The notes beneath the pieces were generated by a model, which did no database searches, had not been told where the DNA came from, and saw only the letters and a list, made by a program, of their open reading frames with translations. Made by a program: the position numbers and the translations under genes. Positions 6,459 through 35,878 of a stretch of 35,878 nt of DNA are shown here, in pieces. Source of the DNA: a virus (lineage: Duplodnaviria; Heunggongvirae; Uroviricota; Caudoviricetes); the IMG/VR virus record IMGVR_UViG_2703718854_000001, one strand, 5' to 3'. Position 1 is the first letter of the stretch, and each line of letters opens with the position of its first letter.

Positions 6459-6535
6459 AACATTTCAAAATTCAATGTAATGAAAGCATATCGTATATCG
6501 CTTTAATATGTGTTATTCTTCTTGGTTGTTAATGT

Positions 6536-6563
6536 TTGATTTTATATGAAAAAATATTATATA
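6536..6563 (+). promoter_or_regulatory. Candidate sigma70 promoter for the RT locus (TTGATT, 16-nt spacer, TATATA)
   Basis: Sequence match only, in a very AT-rich segment where chance matches are common. Confidence 0.25.
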
Positions 6564-6619
6564 TAGAAAGATCAAATACAACGGTTTACTTGTTATGATG
6601 CAATTATTGGTTAGTTAGT

Positions 6620-6870
6620 GAGATACATCGCCATCAATTGGGTATTTTTTACCCGTGGAAAGTTAACACTTTCTACCGTTTACCCCGCGCAACGCCCCTG
6701 CCAGCGACAAGAGTCACAGGACCAGGTGGTATGGCGTATGGGAATTCGAACCCTTTGGGCGACAAAGGGTTCGTGGAGCAGGGAGCTAGTGCTGTTCAAT
6801 CTCATCCTTATGAGGGCGAACCATAGTGTTGGAGCAGACATACCGTTTGCACACTATGGGCATAAGGAGC
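6620..6870 (+). ncRNA. Candidate structured non-coding RNA or leader upstream of the RT operon (possible retron msr-msd)
   Basis: Perfect 11-bp hairpin at 6747-6773; 9-bp stem 6821-6829/6851-6859 nested in an 8-bp stem 6805-6812/6861-6868 that pairs with the downstream Shine-Dalgarno; the overlapping ORFs have no ribosome-binding site and look non-coding. Confidence 0.3.
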
Positions 6871-6875
6871 AAATC

Positions 6876-7031
6876 ATGAAGAATGATAAATTAACCAACG
6901 AACAGCAGGCGCAGAACAAGTCAAACCTGAAAAAGAGGGCTGGTTATGCTTGGGAATTATTCAAATGGGGTATTAGACTGTTTGATTTAGTCACTCGAGC
7001 ACTGGACTACTTAGAAGGGGGTGGTGAGTAA
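6876..7031 (+). CDS. Small protein (51 aa), first ORF of the RT operon
   Basis: ATG at 6876 with AAGGAG 6 nt upstream; hydrophilic N-terminus and amphipathic C-terminus; no recognisable domain. Confidence 0.35.
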   Translation: MKNDKLTNEQQAQNKSNLKKRAGYAWELFKWGIRLFDLVTRALDYLEGGGE

Positions 7032-7067
7032 TGCGTCCTCCCTAGTTTCAATAGCATGGAGTTGCCT

Positions 7068-7376
7068 ATGTTACATAAAGCCCTTCGTTTAATAAGGCAA
7101 TACCATAAAGAATCAATAGTTGAGTTATCTTCATCTTTAGGTATTCCAAAAGACAAAATAGTATCGCTTGAAAGCGGAGTTTGGTCACCGTCGATTGAAG
7201 TCTTAGAGCGTTACGCCTCCCATTTCGACATACCAGTATCCTCTTTAGTATTCTTTTCGGAATCATTAGGCACGCAAGGCCGTTTGTCTAAGCGATTGCG
7301 TTTAAATTTAGCCGGTAAAGTTCTGGATGTTCTGGAGTGGGTAAGTAATAAAAATGAAAAAACGGAAAAAGCTTAA
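7068..7376 (+). CDS. XRE-family HTH protein (about 102 aa) immediately upstream of, and overlapping, the RT gene
   Basis: Cro/C1-like HTH (SIVELSSSLGIPKDKIVSLESG); GGAG 6 nt upstream of the ATG at 7068 (alternative ATG at 7056); 3' end overlaps the RT start by 23 nt. Confidence 0.65.
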   Translation: MLHKALRLIRQYHKESIVELSSSLGIPKDKIVSLESGVWSPSIEVLERYASHFDIPVSSLVFFSESLGTQGRLSKRLRLNLAGKVLDVLEWVSNKNEKTEKA

Positions 7377-8304
7377 GGTTAATACTAAAAATAAATCTTA
7401 TGACATAATGGATTCGCCATTTTACAAACTCAAAAGTAAAAGAAAACTGGCGAATTTGCTTTGTGTTAGTCTTGAAGAATTATACTCTTTGAGAAAAGAT
7501 GAAGGAAACTATTCCGTTTTTGAGCAACTTTCTAAAAAAGGAAAAGCACGAAAAATACAAAAGCCTTTAGAAAAACTAGAACTTGTACATACACGAATTG
7601 CAAGTTTGTTATCACGGATTGCTTTGCCAGAATATCTGCACTCGGGGAAGAAGAAGTGCTCTAATGTGACGAATGCTAAAGCTCATCTTAATAATGAAAA
7701 GATGATGACAACAGATATTAAAGCTTTTTTTCCATCAACTACAAGAGGGATGATATTTTCTTTTTTCTTTTCGATGATGAAAATGTCATCTGATGTTGCT
7801 GATGTTTTGTCCCACATATGTACTTGTCATGACCGATTACCAACAGGTAGTCGCATCAGTATGCCGTTGGCATATTTTGCAAATTCAAGAATGTTTGGTG
7901 AAATATATCAACTTTGCCAAAAGTTACGAGTTAACATGACTGTTTATGTTGATGATCTCACTTTTTCAGGTGGTAACGTAAATCGATTGTTTTGCGCTGT
8001 AATTCGTAAGATCGTTAATAAGCATGGACATGTTATACACCCAACGAAAACAAAATTATATGCCAGAGATAAGCCTAAGTTGGTAACTGGAGTTATTGTA
8101 TTCGGTAATGCTTTAAAAGTTAGGAATGAGCAGCATTTTTTGATGGCTAGGGAAATAGATTATTGGAAAATAATTAAAGACGCCGAAAATGCGAGAGAAA
8201 CAATCATTGCCAAAAAGCTCTTTGGCCGTTTGCATTCAATGGGAGTGATTGAGCAACGTTACAAATCGAAGGTGCTTACTTTAAAGGCTAATACTGCAAA
8301 TTAA
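7354..8304 (+). CDS. Reverse transcriptase, retron-type (316 aa)
   Basis: YVDD active-site motif; NAKAH (NAxxH), DIKAFFPS, LPTGSxxSxxLA and a VTG motif (KLVTGVIVF) align block by block with the retron Ec86 RT recalled from memory; 316 aa is retron-sized; AT-rich cargo. Confidence 0.8.
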   Translation: MKKRKKLKVNTKNKSYDIMDSPFYKLKSKRKLANLLCVSLEELYSLRKDEGNYSVFEQLSKKGKARKIQKPLEKLELVHTRIASLLSRIALPEYLHSGKKKCSNVTNAKAHLNNEKMMTTDIKAFFPSTTRGMIFSFFFSMMKMSSDVADVLSHICTCHDRLPTGSRISMPLAYFANSRMFGEIYQLCQKLRVNMTVYVDDLTFSGGNVNRLFCAVIRKIVNKHGHVIHPTKTKLYARDKPKLVTGVIVFGNALKVRNEQHFLMAREIDYWKIIKDAENARETIIAKKLFGRLHSMGVIEQRYKSKVLTLKANTAN

Positions 8305-8427: not shown

Positions 8428-8865
8428 CTATGAAGCTGACGTCACAAAATTAACGCCAAGAGTCAACAGGTTTGTCACTGCTCCAGCAATTACACCTGGA
8501 GTTCCGTCTTTTACTGCACTGATAATTTTATCACCCATCGTTTCATTACCGCCAAGTGCTTCGGGTTTTTTGTTGAGCACCGCGAGTGCTTTCTCGGTCA
8601 GGCGCACATCATGAAAACCGGTCTGATGGTCTGTTCCGTACAGAATATAGCCGTTTTCGCTTAGGAAAGTGAATGTGCCATCAACCACACTACGCAACTG
8701 ATTCAGTGCTTTCATTTCTGGTGAGTTAAGTTGGTCAAAGTAGTCATCAGGTAACGCGGCGTTAAATTTTTTGTAGGTGATGACTTGTGGTACAGGAAAG
8801 TTATCCCATAGCACCGCAAAGATTTCTGCCGTCTGTTGGTTGAATAATTCGAGATTTTTGGACAT
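8428..8865 (-). CDS. Hypothetical protein (145 aa) with a predicted C-terminal transmembrane anchor
   Basis: Good Shine-Dalgarno (GAAAGGGAA); C-terminal hydrophobic stretch GVIAGAVTNLLTLGVNFV; convergent with the RT gene. Confidence 0.55.
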   Translation of the reverse strand: MSKNLELFNQQTAEIFAVLWDNFPVPQVITYKKFNAALPDDYFDQLNSPEMKALNQLRSVVDGTFTFLSENGYILYGTDHQTGFHDVRLTEKALAVLNKKPEALGGNETMGDKIISAVKDGTPGVIAGAVTNLLTLGVNFVTSAS

Positions 8866-9196
8866 GCATAGTTCCCTTTCATCAATTAAAGACCCTTATG
8901 CCGACTGGGCAAAGAGGCTAACTGTAATGGCCTCAAATAACGACCTGAGCTCTCGCGAGGTGGATAGTTACACTGAAAAAATGGTTGAACAAGCCAGTAA
9001 AGATGAGCTTATGGTCGTTATAAAATACCTGTTAAATCACATCAGAATGAATAAATAAAATGATCTATATCAAGATGTTATCTCACATTTATGAAAGTCC
9101 GTGGACAACGATTTTTCTGCTAATTGTTGTCAGTACGTGCCTCAACAGTGTGATTGGTGCATTGCGCGGCCAGTGACAACTATAAAAATTGATCAG

Positions 9197-9224
9197 AACC
9201 GGCATCATGAATGCCGGTTTTTTT
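9197..9224 (+). terminator. Rho-independent terminator (9-bp GC-rich stem, T-run)
   Basis: aaccggcat-catga-atgccggtt followed by tttttt. Confidence 0.5.
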
Positions 9225-9382
9225 GTGCTTTTTCTGTGATATCCCCGTTTTTATCTGTGCATGCAATATGTGCATGGTTTTGCATGTGCCGGAGTTACAT
9301 GTTCTGGCCGTGCGTCCGCCAAGACTGGCGTGGCTCAAAAGCGGTATTGCAACTGCATTAAAACCGCCCCATGAAGCGGGCG

Positions 9383-9401
9383 GGCGAGGCGGGGAAAGCA
9401 C
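9383..9401. other. cos site: P2-type 19-nt cohesive-end sequence GGCGAGGCGGGGAAAGCAC
   Basis: Exact match to the P2 cohesive-end sequence as I recall it; lies between the old/tin-type region and Q, as in P2. Confidence 0.55.
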
Positions 9402-9545
9402 TGCGCGCAGCCCGTCAAGAATAAAAAACTCTCTTGCAGGTAGAAAACATTCTGTTAACATTTGTCTGGATGAAGTTTAAGTTAGAAATTTATGTTAATG
9501 AACTGATTGATACTTATGTTTTGTCAATAATTTAGGAATGTTAAG

Positions 9546-10682
9546 ATGACAAGCTATGTTACATGGGCAAATAAAGGTGGAATAGGTAAATCAACATTAT
9601 CTTTCCAATTGGCGTTAAAATACGCGAGATTAAACACGAATAAAAAAGTAATCATAATAGATATGAGCCCTCAGTGTGATGTCTCTAGAATGTTATTGGG
9701 GGGAGGGCATTTTAACGGTGAGCAAAAGATCTTGGATAGAATGACCTCTAATCCAAGGTTGACAATTTACCGGTATCTTGAGGCCTGTGTTAATGATGTT
9801 CCTTCTGGGAGGGGATGGCCTGATTCATTATCATACTTAATTGAACCTAATTCTTTTCGAGACGAAAACGCAGAAAAATTGCCTGATAATATTAGTATGG
9901 TCTGTGGAGATTTCGACTTAGAGAGGGTTACTCATAGTTTAGATAATTTGCCACAACCTCAACCAAGAGGCGGGCGTGTTCCGTCGGGTGCTCATTACTC
10001 AGCATATTTATTGCCACGCACTTTTCTACGGAAAATGGTGGAGGACTTTGAGCGCGAATACAGGGATGTGACAATTTTTATTGATACGGATCCATATTAT
10101 TCGGTAGTAACAACACATCTGGGGCTTCTGGCTGCAGACAGGTTGATTTCGGCATACTCTCCTTCATCTCAAGCAAGCCAGTATGCAGTATATCGTAGCT
10201 TAGAGTTTCTATACGATCCTAATTATGGACTGGTGCAAGAGGTTAATACACAGAGAGCAATATATGGTACCCCTTGGTTTGATAGTTTAAATAATATAAT
10301 TACAACACCGAATATATCTGTTGCAAATCTTTATATGGTAGTAAGTAACATGAATACGCCTCAGGCTGGAAGAGGACAACCTCCATACAGCCAACCCCAA
10401 AAACTACATAGACAATCGCAACAAGAAGTTATATCTAGAATTAATGACACATTAAGTAGTTTGGGGATCGCGCATGATTATGTTCATGACTATTTATGGG
10501 ATCTCAAGAGATTAGGTTTGATTTGTGATTATAATGGTTTTGATTTAGCAACAATTCAATTAGGGGAAAATTATGCGGAACCAAGTGATGATGGTAATTA
10601 TTATGTAAATACTACAGGTGGAACACCGATCCAATTATCATCCTATAATGCTAGGATCGAAACTGTTACATCAAAACTATAA
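9546..10682 (+). CDS. ParA/MinD-family P-loop ATPase with an unrecognised C-terminal extension of about 130 aa (378 aa)
   Basis: Deviant Walker A KGGIGKST; A' (IIIDMSPQ) and Walker B-like (IFIDTDP) motifs; AT-rich; no parB-like partner nearby. Confidence 0.7.
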   Translation: MTSYVTWANKGGIGKSTLSFQLALKYARLNTNKKVIIIDMSPQCDVSRMLLGGGHFNGEQKILDRMTSNPRLTIYRYLEACVNDVPSGRGWPDSLSYLIEPNSFRDENAEKLPDNISMVCGDFDLERVTHSLDNLPQPQPRGGRVPSGAHYSAYLLPRTFLRKMVEDFEREYRDVTIFIDTDPYYSVVTTHLGLLAADRLISAYSPSSQASQYAVYRSLEFLYDPNYGLVQEVNTQRAIYGTPWFDSLNNIITTPNISVANLYMVVSNMNTPQAGRGQPPYSQPQKLHRQSQQEVISRINDTLSSLGIAHDYVHDYLWDLKRLGLICDYNGFDLATIQLGENYAEPSDDGNYYVNTTGGTPIQLSSYNARIETVTSKL

Positions 10683-20124: not shown

Positions 20125-20868
20125 TTATCTGGTTAAATAAGTGAGCTCACTCTCTTTAGGTATTAGCTGAGTGTCTCCTCCCCATTCGTTCATGATGTTT
20201 TTTCTCGCATTCCAGTATTCTTGGTAAGTATCTTGATGAACAGTGTAGATACTTGCTAAAAGCCAGTGTTGATACTTAAGAGTCGTGTATTGGTATTCTT
20301 CTATTATCGGTAAAATGAATAAGTTTTTTTGCTTTAGTGAGATTAAATATTCTTTTGTTTGTTTGGTGGTTCTGTCATTGTTTAAGATTCTTTCAATCTT
20401 AAATGAAAAGCCGTGCATGTTTATATTTCTTTGGAGGTGCATGAATGATGATATTGATGGGGCGATCATGTTTTGATGCGTCAGGATGTTTCTTAAATCC
20501 TCCATTAATTTTATTACTGGATTATTTCGGAATTCATGATTGATGAATGCCTCTGATTTGATTTTAATGTCGGCAATATTTAATGCTTTTGTTTTAAGTA
20601 GGTTGCGCGTTGAATCTCTAAATGATAATGCTGAAGATATATAATTGAAAAGGTGTCTTGATATGTTTAAATGTTCTTTTTTAAATTTGTCTCTGTTAAA
20701 TGAATGACGGGAAACAATGTCAGGGGAGTTGAATTTGCTTAATTCATGTTGGACAACTTCGTAATTGGCAATATGCATATGTCCAAGTAAATTGGTGTCG
20801 GAGATTTTTAAATACTCTTGATGGGCGATGGTGTCTTTTTGATTTTCCCAGATTTGATATTTATCCAT
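20125..20868 (-). CDS. AT-rich hypothetical protein (247 aa) on the opposite strand between S and V (P2 orf30 position)
   Basis: Long ORF with much lower GC than the backbone, antisense to the late operons; no domain recognised. Confidence 0.6.
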   Translation of the reverse strand: MDKYQIWENQKDTIAHQEYLKISDTNLLGHMHIANYEVVQHELSKFNSPDIVSRHSFNRDKFKKEHLNISRHLFNYISSALSFRDSTRNLLKTKALNIADIKIKSEAFINHEFRNNPVIKLMEDLRNILTHQNMIAPSISSFMHLQRNINMHGFSFKIERILNNDRTTKQTKEYLISLKQKNLFILPIIEEYQYTTLKYQHWLLASIYTVHQDTYQEYWNARKNIMNEWGGDTQLIPKESELTYLTR

Positions 20869-23377: not shown

Positions 23378-25306
23378 ATGAGCACAAAATTCAGAACCGT
23401 TATCACCACTGCCGGTGCAGCAAAGCTGGCAGCGGCAACCGCGCCGGGAGGGCGGAAGGTCAACATTACCACGATGGCCGTCGGGGATGGCGGTGGTAAA
23501 TTGCCTGTCCCGGATGCCGGACAGACCGGGCTTATCCATGAAGTCTGGCGACATGCGCTGAACAAAATCAGCCAGGACAAACGAAACAGTAATTATATTA
23601 TCGCAGAGCTGGTTATTCCGCCGGAGGTGGGCGGTTTCTGGATGCGTGAGCTTGGCCTGTACGATGATGCGGGAACATTAATTGCCGTGGCGAACATGGC
23701 CGAAAGTTATAAGCCAGCTCTTGCCGAAGGCTCAGGGCGTTCGCAGACCTGTCGCATGGTCATCATCGTCAGCAGTGTGGCCTCAGTGGCGCTGACCATT
23801 GACACCACAACGGTGATGGCGACGCAGGATTACGTTGATGACAAAATTGCAGAGCATGAACAGTCACGACGTCACCCGGACGCCTCGCTGACCGCAAAAG
23901 GTTTTACTCAGTTAAGCAGTGCGATCAACAGCACGTCTGAAACACTGGCCGCAACGCCGAAAGCGGTAAAGGCCGCGTATGATCTTGCTAACGGGAAATA
24001 CACTGCGCAGGATGCCACCACAGCGCGAAAAGGCCTTGTCCAGCTCAGTAGCGCCACCAACAGCACGTCTGAAACGCTCGCCGCAACACCAAAAGCGGTA
24101 AAGGCAGCATATGACCTTGCTAACGGGAAATACACTGCACAGGACGCCACCACAGCGCGAAAAGGTCTTGTCCAGCTCAGTAGCGCCACCAACAGCGATT
24201 CTGAAACGCTTGCAGCAACGCCAAAGGCGGTTAAGACAGCGTATGACCTTGCTAACGGGAAATACACTGCGCAGGATGCCACCACGGCGCGAAAAGGCCT
24301 TGTCCAGCTCAGTAGCGCCACCAACAGTGATTCTGAAACGCTGGCCGCAACACCAAAAGCAGTGAAGTCTGCCTATGACAATGCTGAAAAACGTCTTCAG
24401 AAAGATCAGAACGGTGCGGATATTCCGGGAAAGGATACCTTCACGAAAAATATCGGTGCCTGTCGTGCTTATAGCGGCGCTTTGAGCACTGAAGCCGGAA
24501 ACTGGACAACCGCTCAGTTTATTGAATGGCTGGATTCCCGTGGTGCATTTAATCATCCGTACTGGATGTGCAAATGTTCATGGTCATACGGCAATAATAA
24601 AATTATTACCGATACTGGCTGTGGAACTATTCATCTTGCAGGTTGCGTTATTGAGGTTATGGGTAATAAAGGTGCCATGACCATCCGTGTAACAACACCA
24701 AGCACTTCCACCGGAGGCGGCACCACTAACGCTCAATTCACTTATATTAATCATGGTGATGCTTATGCTCCTGGCTGGCGACGAGACTACAACACGAAAA
24801 ACCAGCAGCCTGCATTTGCTTTAGGGAAAACAGGAAGCACTGTCGGAAATGATAAAGCTGTTGGCTGGAACTGGAATAGCGGGGTCTATCAAGCAAATAT
24901 TGGTGGCGCATCGACATTAATCCTCCATTTCAATATGAGCGAGGGGAGTTGCCCTGCCGTACAGTTCCGTGTGAATTATAAGAACGGCGGTATTTATTAT
25001 CGTTCAGCGCGTGATGGTTATGGATTTGAGGCTGACTGGTCAGAGTTTTACACCACAACCCGCAAACCCTCTGCGGGAGATGTTGGTGCATATACCAAAG
25101 ATGAATCGGATTCTCGCTATGTACGAGATATTCGCCTGGGCACACGTGTTGTTCAGACTATGCAAAAAGGTGTGATGTATGAGAAAGCAGGGCACGTAAT
25201 TACCGGGCTTGGTATTGTCGGTGAAGTCGATGGTGATGACCCCGCAGTATTCAGACCAATACAAAAATACATCAATGGAACATGGTATAACGTCGCACAG
25301 GTGTAA
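23378..25306 (+). CDS. H: Tail fiber protein H (642 aa) with an internal repeat array and a divergent C-terminal receptor-binding region
   Basis: Conserved P2-like N-terminus; 44-aa repeats; lower-GC C-terminal third. Confidence 0.85.
   Translation: MSTKFRTVITTAGAAKLAAATAPGGRKVNITTMAVGDGGGKLPVPDAGQTGLIHEVWRHALNKISQDKRNSNYIIAELVIPPEVGGFWMRELGLYDDAGTLIAVANMAESYKPALAEGSGRSQTCRMVIIVSSVASVALTIDTTTVMATQDYVDDKIAEHEQSRRHPDASLTAKGFTQLSSAINSTSETLAATPKAVKAAYDLANGKYTAQDATTARKGLVQLSSATNSTSETLAATPKAVKAAYDLANGKYTAQDATTARKGLVQLSSATNSDSETLAATPKAVKTAYDLANGKYTAQDATTARKGLVQLSSATNSDSETLAATPKAVKSAYDNAEKRLQKDQNGADIPGKDTFTKNIGACRAYSGALSTEAGNWTTAQFIEWLDSRGAFNHPYWMCKCSWSYGNNKIITDTGCGTIHLAGCVIEVMGNKGAMTIRVTTPSTSTGGGTTNAQFTYINHGDAYAPGWRRDYNTKNQQPAFALGKTGSTVGNDKAVGWNWNSGVYQANIGGASTLILHFNMSEGSCPAVQFRVNYKNGGIYYRSARDGYGFEADWSEFYTTTRKPSAGDVGAYTKDESDSRYVRDIRLGTRVVQTMQKGVMYEKAGHVITGLGIVGEVDGDDPAVFRPIQKYINGTWYNVAQV
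23887..24390 (+). repeat. In-frame tandem repeat array within H: 132-bp unit, about 3.8 copies
   Basis: Unit starts at 23987, 24119 and 24251 (period 132 bp); encodes KGLVQLSSATNS(T/D)SETLAATPKAVKAAYDLANGKYTAQDATTAR. Confidence 0.8.
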
Positions 25307-25309
25307 TTT

Positions 25310-25837
25310 ATGCAGCATTTAAAAAATATTATTGCGGGTAATCCAAAAACTGTTGCCCAATATCAACTGACAAAAAATTTTGATGTTATCTGGTTATGGT
25401 CCGAAGAGGGAAAAAACTGGTATGAGGAAGTAAGTAATTTTCAGGAGGACACGATAAAGATTGTTTACGACGAGAATAATATAATTGTCGGCATCACCAG
25501 AGATGCTTCAACACTTAACCCTGAAGGTTTTAGCGTTGTCGAGGTTCCTGATATTACCGCCAACCGACGTGCTGATGACTCAGGTAAATGGATGTTTAAG
25601 GATGGTGCCGTGATTAAGCGGATTTATACGGCAGACGAACAGCAACAACAGGCCGAATCACAAAAGGCCGCGTTACTTTCCGAAGCGGAAAGCGTTATCC
25701 AGCCGCTGGAACGCGCCGTCAGGCTGAATATGGCGACGGATGGGGAGCGCGCACGACTGGAGTCATGGGAACGCTACAGCGTTCTGGTCAGCCGTGTGGA
25801 TCCTGCAAATCCTGAATGGCCGGAAATACCGCAATAA
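25310..25837 (+). CDS. G: Tail fiber assembly chaperone G, 175 aa
   Basis: Length and position match P2 G. Confidence 0.8.
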
Positions 25838-26127
25838 GTTGTATGATATCTGGAGTGAGCTAACGTATCTATGGCACAGAGTAAAACTTAATCTGACAGT
25901 CTGCTCTGTACCAAAAGCGGAACTTGCTTACATCGTGCTATGTTAGTTTGCTGGGAGCAGGTCATTATCTACGTGATTGCTATTTTATAACTTGGATAAA
26001 ATGGGGGATGAACATAATATCGAGACAGTGATTGCAGAGTTAGTCATTATAGGCGGGCATCAGTTCATGCCGGATCTCTAATGCAATTATCAGGAAAATA
26101 TGGGACGTTTTATCAATCAGAGGAAAT

Positions 26128-27354
26128 ATGTTACAGTTCAGCTTTGTATCAAATGACGTTGTTATGACTTACGACGGTGACAGCGGAGAACAAATAATTT
26201 GGGTTTGGGAGAGTTTAAATAAATTTCAAACAGTATGCATTTCACGAATTTTTAACTTTCAACTCCAGGATTTGAGAAACCCACCGTCAACCGTTCAGGA
26301 TTTTAATGATTACGAATATTCCTTTAATTTTGGCACGCTTAATAATGAATACATAACAGTTCCGGGACGGATTCTAAGCATTAATCGAGATGTCCTTATA
26401 CATAAGTCCATCAAGCTTGAAAGGAAAGTATTTGCGTCAGAACGCAACGTCTCCATTTTTGGTCGGCTTTCAAAACTACTCGATCACACTAATCCCATCA
26501 TCATCGGAGGAGATAAGCCGGAAGCTATACCAAAAAGCGTATTCCAGGAGTTGCAAAGTAAATTCCCCAACACAGGGGAACTGGATCGCTATGCTAATGC
26601 AAGGGTTCACGCTATTCTCGCAGGTTATCTTGATGGTATGAAAGATGCTCGCGAACGGTATGAACATTACCTAAACAGAAAAACAGTGATCAGAAAAACC
26701 GACAAACTGGGTTTAGAAGTTTTAAATAAGCTCGAAATTGAGAAATATACACTCATAAGAGACATTATCCAGGATGCGTTGAATAACAAAACTAACTTGT
26801 CTGAAGATGACTGGCAGAGCCTGATGATACCCTTCATCACATTACTTTTTCCAAAATATATCAAGGTCCTCGAGAAGGTTAAAATTTTCGACTATTACTC
26901 TAATCCTTCGGCTAAAACAAATCGGTTTATAGACATTGCACTGGTGGATGCAAACGGCAACCTTGATATCATCGAAGTCAAAAAGCCGTTTGATGATAAG
27001 ATCCTTCGCAAGACGCCCTATCGCGATAACTATATTCCTACATCAGAACTTAGCGGCGGTATTATGCAGGCTGAAAAGTATATTTTTCATTTATCTAAAT
27101 GGGGTGTTAAGGGTGAAAAAGAGCTTACGAATGCCTACAAGAATTCTCTGCCAGCGGGAATGTGTATTCGTATATCTAACCCAAAAGCCATCATCATTGT
27201 CGGGCGCGATCAGATAGCGAACGGTAACATGACCGACGGTCAGTTGCTTGATTTTGAGATAATCAAACGTAAGTACGCCAACATGATAGACATATTGACG
27301 TACGACGACCTGTTGCGTCGACTTAATAATACGATTGAAGCATTGAAAGGTTGA
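26128..27354 (+). CDS. Cargo protein at the Z/fun position (408 aa) with a C-terminal PD-(D/E)xK-like nuclease motif; Shedu (DUF4263)-like candidate
   Basis: IDIALVD...DIIEVKKP...QAEKY pattern in the C-terminal third; N-terminal 250 aa unrecognised; AT-rich; sits in the G-FI variable locus. Confidence 0.5.
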   Translation: MLQFSFVSNDVVMTYDGDSGEQIIWVWESLNKFQTVCISRIFNFQLQDLRNPPSTVQDFNDYEYSFNFGTLNNEYITVPGRILSINRDVLIHKSIKLERKVFASERNVSIFGRLSKLLDHTNPIIIGGDKPEAIPKSVFQELQSKFPNTGELDRYANARVHAILAGYLDGMKDARERYEHYLNRKTVIRKTDKLGLEVLNKLEIEKYTLIRDIIQDALNNKTNLSEDDWQSLMIPFITLLFPKYIKVLEKVKIFDYYSNPSAKTNRFIDIALVDANGNLDIIEVKKPFDDKILRKTPYRDNYIPTSELSGGIMQAEKYIFHLSKWGVKGEKELTNAYKNSLPAGMCIRISNPKAIIIVGRDQIANGNMTDGQLLDFEIIKRKYANMIDILTYDDLLRRLNNTIEALKG

Positions 27355-27516
27355 ATGCCCATGAGGTTCACACCCACAACGGGGAGCAGGTCACTTCCTC
27401 TTGTTTGATTGACATACCATAACGTCTGCTTTTGGCTCAAAGCAGACTGTCTGATTTGATAGCTTTTGGGCTATGTAAATTGTCAGTTGAAAAATGAGTG
27501 AGTACAAATCAGGACG

Positions 27517-27543
27517 GGCGGGCGAGTTGCCCGCCTTTTCTTT
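27517..27543 (+). terminator. Rho-independent terminator after the Z/fun-locus gene
   Basis: ggcgggc-gagtt-gcccgcc hairpin followed by ttttcttt. Confidence 0.6.
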
Positions 27544-27640
27544 AATCTGTTGTTTCATCCACTGACCAGTCAGGTCAAATAGCGTCTTATGCACTGCCCA
27601 ACAGAAAATAGTTGCACCCATTAACCACGGAGTTAAACGG

Positions 27641-28831
27641 ATGAGTGACTATCATCACGGCGTGCAGGTGCTGGAGATTAACGACGGCACCCGCGTCATT
27701 TCCACCGTATCCACCGCCATTGTTGGCATGGTCTGCACGGCCAGCGATGCGGATGCGGAAATCTTCCCCCTCAATAAACCGGTGCTGATTACCAATGTGC
27801 AGAGCGCAATTGCAAAGGCCGGTAAAAAAGGCACGCTGGCGGCGTCGTTACAGGCCATCGCTGACCAGTCAAAACCGGTCACCGTTGTCGTACGTGTGGA
27901 AGACGGCACCGGCGACGACGAGGAAACGAAACTCGCGCAGACCGTTTCCAATATCATCGGCACTACCGACGAAAACGGTCAGTACACCGGACTGAAAGCC
28001 CTGCTGGCGGCGGAGTCGGTAACCGGTGTTAAACCGCGTATTCTCGGTGTGCCGGGGCTGGATACCAAAGAGGTGGCAGTTGCACTGGCATCAGTCTGTC
28101 AGAAGCTGCGCGCTTTCGGGTATATCAGCGCATGGGGCTGTAAAACCATTTCCGAGGTGAAAGCTTACCGCCAGAATTTCAGCCAGCGTGAGCTGATGGT
28201 CATCTGGCCGGATTTCCTCGCATGGGATACGGTCGCCAGTACCACCGCCACCGCGTATGCCACCGCCCGTGCGCTGGGTCTGCGCGCTAAAATCGACCAG
28301 GAGCAGGGCTGGCATAAAACGCTGTCCAACGTCGGGGTGAACGGTGTTACCGGCATCAGCGCATCTGTATTCTGGGATTTGCAGGAGTCCGGTACTGATG
28401 CTGACCTGCTTAACGAGTCAGGTGTCACTACGCTGATTCGCCGCGACGGTTTCCGCTTCTGGGGTAACCGTACCTGCTCTGATGACCCGCTGTTCCTCTT
28501 TGAAAACTACACCCGCACCGCGCAGGTGCTGGCCGACACGATGGCTGAGGCGCACATGTGGGCGGTGGACAAGCCCATCACCGCAACGCTGATTCGCGAC
28601 ATCGTTGACGGCATCAATGCCAAATTCCGAGAGCTGAAAACAAACGGCTATATCGTGGATGCGACCTGCTGGTTCAGCGAAGAATCCAACGATGCGGAAA
28701 CCCTCAAGGCCGGAAAACTGTATATCGACTACGACTATACCCCGGTGCCTCCTCTTGAAAATCTGACCCTGCGCCAGCGTATTACCGATAAATACCTGGC
28801 AAATCTGGTCACCTCGGTTAACAGCAATTAA
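27641..28831 (+). CDS. FI: Tail sheath protein, 396 aa
   Basis: Length and position match P2 FI. Confidence 0.93.
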   Translation: MSDYHHGVQVLEINDGTRVISTVSTAIVGMVCTASDADAEIFPLNKPVLITNVQSAIAKAGKKGTLAASLQAIADQSKPVTVVVRVEDGTGDDEETKLAQTVSNIIGTTDENGQYTGLKALLAAESVTGVKPRILGVPGLDTKEVAVALASVCQKLRAFGYISAWGCKTISEVKAYRQNFSQRELMVIWPDFLAWDTVASTTATAYATARALGLRAKIDQEQGWHKTLSNVGVNGVTGISASVFWDLQESGTDADLLNESGVTTLIRRDGFRFWGNRTCSDDPLFLFENYTRTAQVLADTMAEAHMWAVDKPITATLIRDIVDGINAKFRELKTNGYIVDATCWFSEESNDAETLKAGKLYIDYDYTPVPPLENLTLRQRITDKYLANLVTSVNSN

Positions 28832-33943: not shown

Positions 33944-34024
33944 TATTTTTATTTTATCTATTTGTTTTATAAGGATAAATTAACTAAAATGGCACCATCA
34001 ACAAAACCGGAAGAGGTGCTCGCG

Positions 34025-34243
34025 ATGTTTCATTGTCCTTTATGCCAGCATGCCGCACATGCGCGTACAAGCCGCTATATCACTGACACGACAAAAGAGC
34101 GTTATCACCAGTGTCAGAACGTGAATTGCAGCGCCACGTTCATCACTTATGAGTCGGTACAGAGATACATCGTGAAGCCGGGAGAAGTCCACGCCGTGAG
34201 GCCGCACCCGTTGCCGTCAGGGCAGCAAATTATGTGGATGTAA
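34025..34243 (+). CDS. ogr: Late gene transcription activator Ogr (zinc finger), 72 aa
   Basis: CPLCQH...CQNVNC zinc finger; 72 aa from the third in-frame ATG; last phage gene before attR. Confidence 0.85.
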   Translation: MFHCPLCQHAAHARTSRYITDTTKERYHQCQNVNCSATFITYESVQRYIVKPGEVHAVRPHPLPSGQQIMWM

Positions 34244-34344: not shown

Positions 34345-34372
34345 TAAAAAATAAGCCCGTGTAAGGGAGATT
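34345..34372. repeat. attR core, 28-bp direct repeat identical to attL; it is the 3' terminator end of cyaR
   Basis: Exact repeat of 491-518. Confidence 0.8.
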
Positions 34373-34432
34373 ACACAGGCTAAGGAGGTGGTTCCTGGTA
34401 CAGCTAGCATTTTATGGGTTATGTTTTTCAGC
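34346..34432 (-). ncRNA. cyaR: CyaR (RyeE) Hfq-dependent small RNA
   Basis: The reverse complement of 34346-34432 reads GCTGAAAAACATAACCCATAAAATGCTAGCTGTACCAGGAACCACCTCCTTAGCCTGTGTAATCTCCCTTACACGGGCTTATTTTTT, which matches the E. coli CyaR sequence as I recall it, including the terminator. Confidence 0.8.
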
Positions 34433-34500
34433 GAAACGGATGATAACCTTAATAAATGCAGCTGTATGTGATCGGTTTCTAAGAATTTTCCATCCGGGAA
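34433..34500 (-). promoter_or_regulatory. cyaR promoter region with a candidate CRP half-site
   Basis: On the minus strand, a TATCAT -10-like element lies just upstream of the CyaR 5' end, with TCACA-containing CRP-like sequence further upstream; CyaR is known to be CRP-activated. Confidence 0.3.
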
Positions 34501-34516
34501 AAATAATCGAAATTAA

Positions 34517-35878
34517 TCACTTACCGTGTGGGTTACGCGTGGTTTCCCCGGAGAAATTACGCATCAGCAGAGCGTAATTGAGCTCAAGATCCTGCGGGAC
34601 CGGGAGCCACACAGTATAACCATCGCCTGGTGCGACCGGCATCGCTTCACCTTTGGCGTTTTCCATGTGCTCAAGGGTAAAGTTAATGTTGCCTTGCGGC
34701 GTCATCAGCTCAAGGCTGTCGCCAACGGAGAATTTATTTTTCACCGCTACCGCCGCGAGGTCCCCCTTGCGCTCACCGGTAAACTCACCAACAAACTGCT
34801 GGCGGTCAGAAACTGAATAACCGTATTCGTAGTTCTGATAATCGTCGTGAGTATGACGACGCAGGAAACCTTCGGTATAGCCACGATGCGCCAGACCTTC
34901 CAGAGTTTCCAGCAGGCTGGTATCGAACGGTTTGCCCGCAGCGGCGTCATCGATAGCTTTACGGTAAACCTGTGCGGTGCGTGCGCAATAGTAGAAAGAT
35001 TTAGTACGGCCTTCGATTTTCAGCGAATGCACGCCCATTTTGGTCAGGCGTTCTACATGGGCGATGGCGCGCAGATCTTTCGAGTTCATGATGTAAGTGC
35101 CGTGCTCATCTTCAAACGCGGTCATATACTCGCCCGGACGCTGGGCTTCTTCGATCATAAACACTTTGTCGGTTGGCGCGCCGATACCCAGCGTCGGCTC
35201 AACATTTTGCACCGGAATCGGCTCGTACTTGTGTACGATGTTGCCAACGTCATCTTCTTTCCCTTCCTGGACGTTGTACTCCCAGCGGCAGGCGTTGGTG
35301 CAGGTACCCTGGTTCGGATCGCGCTTGTTGATATAGCCAGAGAGCAGGCAGCGACCGGAGTAGGCCATGCACAGTGCGCCGTGAACGAAGATCTCGATCT
35401 CCATATCCGGCACCTGATTGCGGATCTCTTCAATCTCTTCCAGCGACAGCTCGCGAGAGAGGATCACGCGGGTCAGGCCCATTTGCTGCCAGAATTTCAC
35501 CGTCGCCCAGTTTACGGCGTTAGCCTGCACCGAGAGGTGGATCGGCATTTCAGGGAAGTGCTCACGCACCAGCATAATCAGCCCTGGATCGGACATAATC
35601 AGCGCATCCGGCCCCATTTCCACCACCGGTTTCAGGTCACGGATAAAGGTTTTCAGCTTGGCGTTGTGCGGTGCAATGTTGACCACGACATAAAACTTTT
35701 TCCCCAGCGCGTGGGCTTCATTGATGCCGAGCTGAAGATTTTCGTGGTTGAATTCGTTGTTGCGCACACGCAGGGAGTAACGCGGCTGGCCCGCATAAAC
35801 AGCATCTGCGCCATAAGCGAAAGCGTAACGCATATTTTTCAGCGTTCCCGCCGGGGAAAGGAGTTCCGGTTTAAACAT
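34517..35878 (-). CDS. yegQ: Peptidase U32-family protein YegQ (TrhP), 453 aa, complete; start codon at the window edge
   Basis: 453 aa, N-terminus MFKPELLSPAGTLKNMRYAFAYGADAVYAG as recalled for E. coli YegQ; adjacent to cyaR as in E. coli. Confidence 0.88.
   Translation of the reverse strand: MFKPELLSPAGTLKNMRYAFAYGADAVYAGQPRYSLRVRNNEFNHENLQLGINEAHALGKKFYVVVNIAPHNAKLKTFIRDLKPVVEMGPDALIMSDPGLIMLVREHFPEMPIHLSVQANAVNWATVKFWQQMGLTRVILSRELSLEEIEEIRNQVPDMEIEIFVHGALCMAYSGRCLLSGYINKRDPNQGTCTNACRWEYNVQEGKEDDVGNIVHKYEPIPVQNVEPTLGIGAPTDKVFMIEEAQRPGEYMTAFEDEHGTYIMNSKDLRAIAHVERLTKMGVHSLKIEGRTKSFYYCARTAQVYRKAIDDAAAGKPFDTSLLETLEGLAHRGYTEGFLRRHTHDDYQNYEYGYSVSDRQQFVGEFTGERKGDLAAVAVKNKFSVGDSLELMTPQGNINFTLEHMENAKGEAMPVAPGDGYTVWLPVPQDLELNYALLMRNFSGETTRNPHGK

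What the first reader, a model, noticed from the sequence alone, without database searches (positions are those of the whole stretch)
26128..27354. Z/fun-locus cargo: 408-aa protein with a C-terminal PD-(D/E)xK-like nuclease core, Shedu (DUF4263)-like
A single AT-rich gene with its own terminator sits between G and FI, the position of P2 Z/fun and a known variable locus. The C-terminal third contains IDIALVD, then DIIEVKKP, then QAEKY, which fits the D...(D/E)xK pattern of restriction-endonuclease-fold nucleases. The single-gene architecture with a variable N-terminal domain is what I associate with Shedu. The assignment rests on motifs alone.
Basis: partly seen in the sequence, partly recalled or inferred. 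Interest (0 to 1): 0.6.

Follow-up and report, generated by a model that had tools for sequence, protein, structure and literature searches.

The report
Known Shedu nuclease in P2 prophage

Summary
The ORF at 26128-27354 (+) is real and encodes 408 aa. It has 39.6% GC against 50.5% for the window. It is the only gene in a 1.5-kb cassette (25914-27419) between tail-fibre-assembly gene G and tail-sheath gene FI of a P2-like prophage. Pfam SduA_C (DUF4263) matches at 3e-33, and a PADLOC SduA model matches end to end at 4e-219. The protein is 407/408 identical to PDB 8PS4/8PS5/8PS6, which is EcSduA from Loeff et al. Every residue shown there to be essential is present: the active site E226, Q230, D269, E283, K285 and Q314, the end-stacking W25, and the DNA-binding patches. 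The published mechanism therefore transfers directly. A homotetramer uses N-terminal clamps to capture free dsDNA ends, and its PD-(D/E)xK domain nicks the 5' strand about 13-14 nt from the end. This blocks T-even phages without killing the cell. The same paper already notes Shedu in the P2 Z/fun locus. The near-identical ECOR31 gene was validated as PD-T4-8 in 2022. RefSeq already names this exact sequence a Shedu immune nuclease. The only peculiarity is a rare D195G allele. The verdict is already known, with low interest.

The parts
25310..25837 (+). Context: tail fibre assembly gene (P2 gpG type), the last gene before the hotspot
   Evidence: Pfam Caudo_TAP at 5e-35. RefSeq names it 'tail fiber assembly protein' in the syntenic genome.
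25890..25921 (.). Left arm of the imperfect inverted repeat that straddles the left cargo junction
   Evidence: the repeat finder I1: 32-nt arms, 84% complementary. It corresponds to the 'left inverted repeat' feature of AJ512677.1.
25914..27419 (+). Cargo cassette of the Z/fun hotspot: 1,506 bp, ~40% GC, a single gene
   Evidence: Homology to reference P2 ends at 25913 and resumes at 27420. The whole of 25900-27640 is 99.5% identical to the P2-EC31 Z-region. No other ORF of 50 aa or more fits inside on the + strand.
25992..26020 (+). Putative weak sigma-70 promoter (TTGGAT-17-TAATAT), transferred from the P2-EC31 annotation
   Evidence: The -35/-10 features of AJ512677.1 at 185-190 and 208-213 map here. 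The consensus scan did not pick it up. Functional support is indirect: the ECOR31 gene with 257 bp of upstream DNA defended from its native promoter.
26119..26124 (+). Shine-Dalgarno sequence AGAGGA
   Evidence: Read directly from the sequence.
26128..27354 (+). sduA: Shedu immune nuclease, 408 aa (G195 allele)
   Evidence: The exact sequence is in NCBI as WP_061362396.1 'Shedu immune nuclease family protein'.
26128..26562 (+). N-terminal DNA-end-sensing clamp domain (aa 1-145), containing W25, R106 and K116
   Evidence: Domain limits come from Loeff et al.. The residues are present. The region is identical to 8PS6 over aa 1-188.
26563..26691 (+). Alpha-helical linker (aa 146-188), containing R154 and Y181
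26710..27351 (+). DUF4263 / SduA_C PD-(D/E)xK nuclease domain (aa 195-408). Active-site residues are E226, Q230, D269, E283, K285 and Q314. Codon 195 (26710-26712, GGT) carries the single difference from the PDB protein.
   Evidence: Pfam match over aa 224-396. Residues checked. Mutational data. The G/A difference is at 26711.
27425..27456 (.). Right arm of the inverted repeat at the right cargo junction. It also forms a local hairpin at 27424-27447.
   Evidence: It lies near the 'Right inverted repeat' feature of AJ512677.1, which maps to about window 27424-27514.
27516..27536 (+). Intrinsic-terminator-like hairpin (9 bp, 7 GC, then a T-run) in the conserved P2 backbone upstream of FI
   Evidence: It lies within the block 27420-27640 that is conserved across P2-like phages.
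27641..28831 (+). Context: tail sheath gene (P2 gpFI type), the first gene after the hotspot
   Evidence: Pfam Phage_sheath_1 and Phage_sheath_1C. RefSeq annotation.

Best explanation
The gene is sduA, the single-protein Shedu anti-phage system of E. coli (type I, also known as EcSduA or PD-T4-8). It is carried as the sole cargo of the Z/fun hotspot of a P2-like prophage. By near-identity to the characterised protein, it should form a homotetramer. The DUF4263 PD-(D/E)xK nuclease domains make the core, and the N-terminal domains form two clamps. Each clamp admits only a free end of double-stranded DNA, with W25 stabilising the bound end. Capturing the end lays the duplex along basic patches and over an active site. 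With Mg2+, that site nicks the 5' strand about 13-14 nt from the end, independently of sequence. The circular chromosome and circular plasmids have no ends and are spared. Phages that expose linear ends are blocked, especially T-even phages whose recombination-dependent replication relies on DNA ends, and the infected cell survives. The N-terminal domain also restrains the nuclease, because the isolated nuclease domain is toxic. The sequence, domain, residues and context are shown here. The oligomer, end sensing, nicking and phenotype are shown in the literature for a protein differing at one residue. It is an inference that this G195 allele behaves the same way and is expressed from the prophage. 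A further inference from general knowledge of P2 biology is that the carrier tolerates the nuclease. P2 replicates and is packaged from circular monomers, and its virion DNA has 19-nt cohesive ends, so it exposes few blunt dsDNA ends.
For: The Pfam SduA_C match is 3.2e-33. The full-length PADLOC SduA match is 4e-219, whereas other SduA models match only the C-terminal domain. The protein is 407/408 identical to PDB 8PS4/8PS5/8PS6. All functionally tested residues are present: W25, R106, K116, R154, Y181, E226, Q230, Y256, K263, D269, E283, K285 and Q314. The published data for EcSduA are as follows. EOP on T2 and T6 drops more than 30,000-fold. Cultures survive at MOI 5. The protein is a tetramer by SEC-MALS and cryo-EM. 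The isolated nuclease domain is toxic. Cleavage is dsDNA-specific and Mg-dependent and gives a ~13-nt product. Active-site, W25A and patch mutants lose defence. Transformation by linear DNA, but not circular DNA, is reduced about 10-fold. T6 escapers map to uvsW. The ECOR31 version defended against T4 from its native promoter on a low-copy plasmid. The cassette sits in the Z/fun position of a P2-like prophage. RefSeq annotates the gene as a Shedu immune nuclease in 53 complete E. coli genomes, always on the chromosome. The exact G195 protein is in NCBI under the same name.
Against: Nothing in the sequence argues against this reading. Several caveats remain. This window has G195 where the PDB protein, P2-EC31, the closest genome and apparently all 53 complete genomes have D195, and the effect of that change is untested. 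The published DNA-bound structure places the scissile phosphate about 12 A from the catalytic centre, so the activation step is unresolved. Purified T2, T6 and T7 genomic DNA was not substantially degraded in vitro, so the in vivo target, whether incoming ends or replication intermediates, is inferred. The only promoter annotated for this cassette is weak at 7 of 12 consensus positions, and the scan did not detect it.
Confidence: 0.95

Rival explanations
1. It is the same Shedu protein but acts by abortive infection. The activated nuclease would damage host as well as phage DNA, so the infected cell dies or arrests and only the population is protected.
For: [quoted passage not shown]. Vassallo et al. 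classified 12 of their 21 systems as Abi by MOI dependence. The isolated nuclease domain is toxic to E. coli.
Against: Loeff et al. found that cultures carrying EcSduA grew like uninfected controls after T6 infection at MOI 5, and they concluded it is not Abi. Full-length protein is not toxic and circular plasmids are untouched. The two studies used different phages (T4 and T6) and different expression systems (native promoter and arabinose induction). I could not read the per-system Abi call in Vassallo's figure.
Confidence: 0.1
2. It works like B. cereus Shedu rather than by end-nicking. Infection would trigger a conformational change that releases autoinhibition. Tetramers would then pair into octamers and make sequence-independent double-strand breaks with 7-nt 3' overhangs.
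For: The DUF4263 core is shared, and several other PADLOC SduA models match the C-terminal domain at 1e-12 to 1e-5. N-terminal autoinhibition is seen in both proteins. The 12-A gap between DNA and active site in EcSduA implies an unseen rearrangement.
Against: The N-terminal domain here is unrelated to that of the B. cereus protein. Other SduA models align only from about aa 180-280 onward. Vassallo et al. found no homology to the B. cereus system outside DUF4263, and Gu et al. place PD-T4-8 in a different class, type 1B. For the near-identical EcSduA the observed product is a nick about 13 nt from 5' ends, and the structure shows an end bound in the clamp.
Confidence: 0.04
3. The gene is a lysogenic-conversion or other non-defence cargo gene, or an inactive allele. 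This follows the 2004 annotation as 'putative lysogenic conversion protein', or supposes that D195G disables the protein.
For: AJ512677.1 annotates the orthologue as a 'putative lysogenic conversion protein'. The G195 allele is rare, seen on 5 contigs against 409 for D195, and absent from 53 complete genomes.
Against: The 2004 label predates the discovery of Shedu and was placed on a CDS truncated by a 1-nt deletion. The ORF here is intact and all essential residues are conserved. Residue 195 is not among the active-site or DNA-contact residues reported.
Confidence: 0.02

Closest known systems
EcSduA, Shedu of E. coli KTE10 (PDB 8PS4, 8PS5, 8PS6; Loeff, Walter, Rosalen & Jinek, bioRxiv 10.1101/2023.08.10.552762)
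   Same: 407 of 408 residues are identical, with the same length and domain layout. All catalytic, end-stacking and DNA-patch residues are shared. The genomic niche is the same, since the authors note Shedu in the P2 Z/fun locus.
   Different: There is a single substitution, G195 here against D195, at the start of the nuclease-domain construct (aa 195-408). Its effect is untested.
PD-T4-8 (Vassallo et al. 2022, Nat Microbiol, PMC9519451), from E. coli ECOR31, protein RCP52534.1
   Same: It is a single DUF4263 gene of 1,227 nt, the same length as this ORF. It comes from the strain whose P2-like prophage Z-region (P2-EC31, AJ512677.1) is 99.5% identical to this window over 1.74 kb. The paper reports a second P2 defence hotspot that holds fun in reference P2. 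The gene was validated against T4 from its native promoter.
   Different: I could not retrieve RCP52534.1 to compare it residue by residue. The 2004 P2-EC31 sequence implies N121 and D195, against T121 and G195 here. It was reported before the mechanism was known, and Gu et al. cite it as 'proposed Abi'.
P2 fun(Z), the cargo of the same locus in reference phage P2
   Same: It sits in the same position between G and FI, in the same orientation, as a single gene. Vassallo et al. refer to it as a previously identified defence gene. That it blocks T5 is from my own knowledge.
   Different: The protein is unrelated: 300 aa with no BLASTP similarity, best E = 0.97. The hotspot is shared but the gene is not.
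Bacillus cereus B4264 Shedu (Doron et al. 2018; Gu et al., bioRxiv 10.1101/2023.08.10.552793)
   Same: Both have a C-terminal DUF4263 PD-(D/E)xK nuclease, are single-protein systems, form homotetramers and show N-terminal autoinhibition.
   Different: The N-terminal sensor domain is different. The reported active form is also different: an octamer making double-strand breaks with 7-nt 3' overhangs, rather than a tetramer nicking near 5' ends.

Membership tests
Shedu (SduA) anti-phage nuclease family | DUF4263 / SduA_C domain scoring above Pfam's gathering score | tested here: met
   PF14082 scores 115.6 bits against a cut-off of 27, E = 3.2e-33, covering aa 224-396 and profile positions 2-159 of 159.
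Shedu (SduA) anti-phage nuclease family | Intact PD-(D/E)xK active site (E226, Q230, D269, E283-x-K285, Q314 in EcSduA numbering) | tested here: met
   All residues are present at the same positions. Their necessity was shown by alanine mutants in the literature.
Shedu (SduA) anti-phage nuclease family | Single-gene system with no obligatory partner gene | tested here: met
   The cassette 25914-27419 holds only this ORF. The orthologue alone confers defence.
Shedu type I, E. coli EcSduA / PD-T4-8 subtype | Full-length similarity including the subtype-specific N-terminal end-clamp domain (W25, R106/K116 patch) and the linker | tested here: met
   PADLOC PDLC04067 matches 1-407 of 407 positions at 4e-219. 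The protein is 407/408 identical to 8PS4 and identical over aa 1-188 to 8PS6. Residues checked.
Shedu type I, E. coli EcSduA / PD-T4-8 subtype | Homotetramer that binds dsDNA ends and nicks the 5' strand about 13-14 nt from the end, with defence against T-even phages | not testable with these tools
   This is biochemistry and phenotype. It is shown for the protein that differs only at residue 195 and is transferred here by identity.
P2-like phage Z/fun defence hotspot cargo | Located between tail-fibre-assembly gene G and tail-sheath gene FI of a P2-like prophage. Backbone homology breaks at both junctions and composition is atypical. | tested here: met
   Flanking genes. Homology to P2 stops at 25913 and resumes at 27420. 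GC is 0.40 against 0.505. 901 of 5,426 E. coli genomes match part of the 25900-27640 query, and apart from the 53 full-length carriers the matches are 80-99% identical, consistent with the conserved backbone segment seen in the phage search. Only 53 carry this cargo.
P2 Fun(Z) protein family | Sequence similarity to P2 Fun(Z) | tested here: not met
   BLASTP of SduA against the 300-aa protein at the same locus of P2 gives a best E of 0.97.
B. cereus-type Shedu (type 1A of Gu et al.) | The shared N-terminal sensor domain of that class | tested here: not met
   Apart from the two full-length subtype models (PDLC04067, PDLC00388), the other PADLOC SduA models align only with aa ~180-408. Gu et al. 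place PD-T4-8 in type 1B. Vassallo et al. found no homology to the B. cereus protein beyond DUF4263.

The most novel reading that the evidence does not exclude
The only unexplored angles concern this particular copy. First, the rare D195G substitution lies at the linker/nuclease boundary and might alter how tightly the N-terminal domain restrains the nuclease, changing phage range or toxicity. Second, an end-sensing nuclease may be tolerated by P2-like phages specifically because P2 replicates and is packaged from circular monomers. This prophage also carries a type VI retron-like system in its other hotspot, so the pair could form a deliberate two-layer anti-phage set. None of this was tested, and the default expectation is a neutral polymorphism and an ordinary hotspot cargo.
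Probability: 0.07. Interest if true: 0.3.

Novelty: already known. Interest (0 to 1): 0.08.

Why it matters
It matters little for discovery. The gene, its structure, its mechanism, its defence phenotype and its residence in the P2 Z/fun hotspot are all published, and RefSeq already names this exact sequence a Shedu immune nuclease. The result is useful as validation. A reader working from motifs alone correctly identified a Shedu nuclease and its hotspot context, and the case gives a clean positive control for the scan. For annotating this window, it establishes that the prophage carries at least two defence cargoes: Shedu at Z/fun and a retron-like RT system at the gpA-gpQ hotspot.

Tried and rejected
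(1) NCBIfam gave no hit for the protein, although RefSeq names it a Shedu immune nuclease. That name presumably comes from another evidence type, so the miss was not pursued.

(2) I searched for an exact Ogr-type late-promoter dyad, TGT-N12-ACA, upstream of FI, hoping to show that the terminator at 27516-27536 separates the cargo from the F operon. No match lies there. The window has 4 matches against 9 expected by chance, so the test is uninformative.

(3) The consensus promoter scan found no + strand promoter upstream of sduA. The only candidate is the weak TTGGAT-17-TAATAT transferred from the P2-EC31 annotation.

(4) Folding the 3' flank as RNA gave only z = -2.3. This shows nothing beyond the hairpins already listed.

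(5) I tried to confirm by accession that PD-T4-8 (RCP52534.1) is the same protein. The cluster look-up shows at most four accessions per member and did not list it, so that link rests on strain, gene length, domain and locus.

(6) I considered structure prediction and fold search and rejected them as unnecessary, because an experimental structure of the same protein exists.

(7) I considered whether the gene might be related to P2 fun(Z) and rejected this after BLASTP.

(8) I considered whether the shorter CDS in AJ512677.1 indicates a different start or a genuinely truncated variant. It is a 1-nt deletion relative to the window at position 27083. It is probably a sequencing error, because the ECOR31 genome gene is full length.

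Full report
**Observation**

It runs 26128..27354 on the + strand, starts with ATG and encodes 408 aa. An AGAGGA ribosome-binding site lies at 26119-26124. The gene has 39.6% GC in a window of 50.5%.

The upstream gene, 25310-25837, is a Caudo_TAP tail-fibre assembly protein. The downstream gene, 27641-28831, is a tail sheath protein. In a syntenic RefSeq genome the order is tail fibre, tail fibre assembly, this gene, sheath, tube, tape measure. That is the P2 H-G-[Z/fun]-FI-FII arrangement.

**Cargo boundaries**

BLASTN against reference P2 shows backbone homology ending at 25913 and resuming at 27420. The cassette is therefore 25914-27419, which is 1,506 bp, and it holds a single gene. An imperfect inverted repeat straddles the two junctions, with arms at 25890-25921 and 27425-27456 that are 84% complementary. 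It matches the 'left/right inverted repeat' features of the 2004 GenBank record for the P2-EC31 Z-region.

Reference P2 carries the 300-aa fun(Z) gene in the same place and orientation. Fun(Z) is unrelated to this protein, with a best BLASTP E of 0.97.

The strong terminator-like hairpin at 27516-27536 lies in the block from 27420 onward that is 92-96% identical in all P2-like phages. It belongs to the backbone, not to the cargo.

**Identity**

- Pfam SduA_C (PF14082, formerly DUF4263) matches aa 224-396 at 3.2e-33, with 115.6 bits against a cut-off of 27.
- PADLOC's SduA model PDLC04067 matches end to end at 4e-219. Apart from a second full-length model (PDLC00388, 3.8e-171), the other SduA models match only the C-terminal domain. 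This is the expected pattern for a family with a conserved nuclease and variable sensors.
- PHROG 18241 matches over the full length, with function listed as unknown.
- NCBIfam has no model for it.
- Against the PDB, the protein is 407/408 identical to 8PS4/8PS5 'Shedu effector protein'. It is identical over aa 1-188 to the N-terminal-domain crystal structure 8PS6.
- The single difference is G195 here against D195.

**Published mechanism**

The PDB entries belong to Loeff, Walter, Rosalen and Jinek (bioRxiv 10.1101/2023.08.10.552762), who studied EcSduA from E. coli KTE10. Their findings are:

- EOP of T2 and T6 drops more than 30,000-fold.
- Cultures infected with T6 at MOI 5 grow like uninfected controls, so the system is not abortive.
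- The protein is a 195-kDa homotetramer. The DUF4263 domains form the core, and the N-terminal domains form two clamps.
- The isolated nuclease domain is toxic, while the full-length protein is not.
- Cleavage is dsDNA-specific and Mg-dependent and gives a ~13-nt product.
- The active site comprises E226, Q230, D269, E283, K285 and Q314, and alanine mutants lose both activity and defence.
- In the DNA-bound structure a duplex end sits in the 17-A clamp, stabilised by W25. Basic patches (R106/K116, R154/Y181, Y256/K263) guide the DNA over the active site, so that phosphate 14 of the 5' strand faces the catalytic centre.
- Both ends of a linear oligonucleotide are nicked at the same distance.
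- Transformation by linear fragments, but not by circular plasmid, falls about 10-fold.
- T6 escapers carry uvsW mutations that suppress recombination-dependent replication.

I checked that every one of these residues is present in the window's protein.

**Earlier descriptions of the same gene**

- The DNA of 25900-27640 is 99.5% identical to AJ512677.1, 'Bacteriophage P2-EC31 proviral Z-region, ORF1', annotated as a 'putative lysogenic conversion protein'. That record's CDS is shorter only because it lacks one base relative to window position 27083, which shifts the frame.
- Vassallo et al. 2022 (PMC9519451) recovered PD-T4-8 by functional selection on T4. It is a single DUF4263 gene of 1,227 nt from ECOR31. 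They validated it from its native promoter on a low-copy plasmid, in a cloned region running 257 bp upstream to 324 bp downstream of the gene. They also pointed out a second P2 defence hotspot that holds fun in reference P2.
- Gu et al. classify PD-T4-8 as a type 1B Shedu.
- I could not compare RCP52534.1 directly. Its equivalence to this protein rests on strain of origin, length, domain and locus.

**Distribution**

In the complete E. coli genome collection, 901 of 5,426 genomes match part of the query. Only 53 carry the whole cassette at 99% identity or more. All copies are chromosomal, and RefSeq labels them 'Shedu immune nuclease family protein'.

A 61-nt probe centred on codon 195 matches all 53 at 60 of 61 bases and none exactly. 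This is consistent with D195 in all of them, although I verified it only for the closest genome and for P2-EC31.

An exact-sequence look-up finds both alleles. D195 is on 409 contigs. The window's G195 protein is on 5 contigs and is already in NCBI as WP_061362396.1/KXR54048.1, 'Shedu immune nuclease family protein'.

**How it most likely works here**

By identity, the protein should act as a tetrameric sensor-effector. It would capture free dsDNA ends with its N-terminal clamps and nick the 5' strand about 13-14 nt from the end. This would cripple phages whose replication depends on linear ends, while the circular chromosome is ignored.

- Shown here: the sequence, domain, residues and context.
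- Shown in the literature: the assembly, end sensing, nicking and phenotype.
- Inferred: that G195 is neutral, and that the prophage expresses the gene. The only annotated promoter is weak and my scan did not detect it, but the ECOR31 fragment with 257 bp of upstream DNA was active.
- Suggested from general knowledge of P2, not tested: P2 tolerates this nuclease because it replicates and is packaged from circular monomers and has 19-nt cohesive ends.

**Rivals**

[quoted passage not shown] The two studies used different phages and different expression systems, so this is an open discrepancy in the literature rather than in the sequence.
- *B. cereus-style activation.* Octamerisation with staggered double-strand breaks is unlikely here, because the sensor domain is different and the observed product is a 5'-proximal nick.
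- *A non-defence or inactive gene.* This is very unlikely given the intact ORF and conserved residues.

**Verdict**

The finding is already known in all respects, so interest is low. The only feature specific to this copy is the rare D195G allele.

**Rest of the window (context only)**

The window spans a complete P2-like prophage. Its right end abuts the host CyaR sRNA at 34349-34434 (-) and a peptidase U32 gene. This is the neighbourhood where, from my own knowledge, E. coli K-12 keeps a P2 remnant (ogrK/yegZ).

The other P2 hotspot, between gpA and gpQ at about 6.5-10.7 kb and 35-44% GC, holds an HTH protein and a reverse transcriptase. They match PADLOC's type VI retron models at 8e-31 and 4e-105. 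A ParA-like ATPase and several proteins of unknown function lie alongside.

A third AT-rich insert at 20125-20868 (-), between S and V at the P2 orf30 position, encodes a 247-aa protein with no Pfam or PADLOC hit.

Noticed in passing
window 7056-8304 (+), with upstream region 6460-7055: An HTH protein (7056-7376) and an overlapping reverse transcriptase (7354-8304) match PADLOC HTH_VI (7.7e-31) and RT_VI (3.9e-105). This is a type VI retron-like defence system in the gpA-gpQ (tin/old) hotspot of the same prophage. The region is about 82% identical to Klebsiella P2-like phages annotated with an RNA-directed DNA polymerase and an XRE regulator. Rfam found no msr/msd RNA, and I did not locate the ncRNA.
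   Followed up: partly
window 8428-10682: The rest of the low-GC gpA-gpQ island contains a 378-aa ParA/AAA_31-like ATPase (9546-10682, +) and two small minus-strand ORFs (8428-8865 and 9180-9461). The small ORFs match only PHROGs of unknown function, and none of these proteins hits PADLOC. They may form a second, unrecognised cargo module.
   Followed up: partly
window 20125-20868 (-): A 247-aa ORF on the opposite strand sits in a 34-37% GC insert between the virion-morphogenesis gene S and baseplate gene V, which is the position of P2 orf30. It matches PHROG 12680 (unknown function) over its full length but has no Pfam or PADLOC hit. RefSeq calls the equivalent gene 'hypothetical protein'. 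This is a third variable, AT-rich cargo site in the same prophage.
   Followed up: partly
window 34349-35878 (-): The host flank contains CyaR/RyeE sRNA (Rfam 100.7 bits) at 34349-34434 and a peptidase U32 gene at 34517-35878. The prophage's right end (ogr-like ORF at 33962-34243) therefore abuts cyaR. From my own knowledge, E. coli K-12 keeps a P2 remnant in the same neighbourhood.
   Followed up: no
window 23378-25306 (+), repeats about 23900-24330: The tail fibre protein (642 aa) contains three to four near-perfect tandem copies of a ~39-aa unit (…ATPKAVKAAYDLANGKYTAQDATTARKGLVQLSSATNS…). A long ORF on the opposite strand mirrors the repeat and is probably an artefact of it.
   Followed up: no
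L001 (AJ512677.1) position ~1276, equivalent to window 27083: The 2004 GenBank record for the P2-EC31 Z-region lacks one base relative to the window. This truncates its annotated ORF1 to 362 aa. It is probably a sequencing error, because the ECOR31 genome gene (PD-T4-8) is 1,227 nt.
   Followed up: yes
window 26710-26712 (codon 195, GGT): This copy encodes G195, whereas the PDB protein, P2-EC31 and the closest genome have D195. A 61-nt probe matched none of the 53 complete E. coli genomes exactly. The G195 protein exists on only 5 contigs in the 15-billion-protein collection (WP_061362396.1), against 409 contigs for D195.
   Followed up: yes
literature: The published accounts disagree on whether the E. 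coli Shedu (PD-T4-8/EcSduA) acts by abortive infection. Gu et al., citing Vassallo et al., say it was proposed to. Loeff et al. report direct immunity, with survival at MOI 5.
   Followed up: partly
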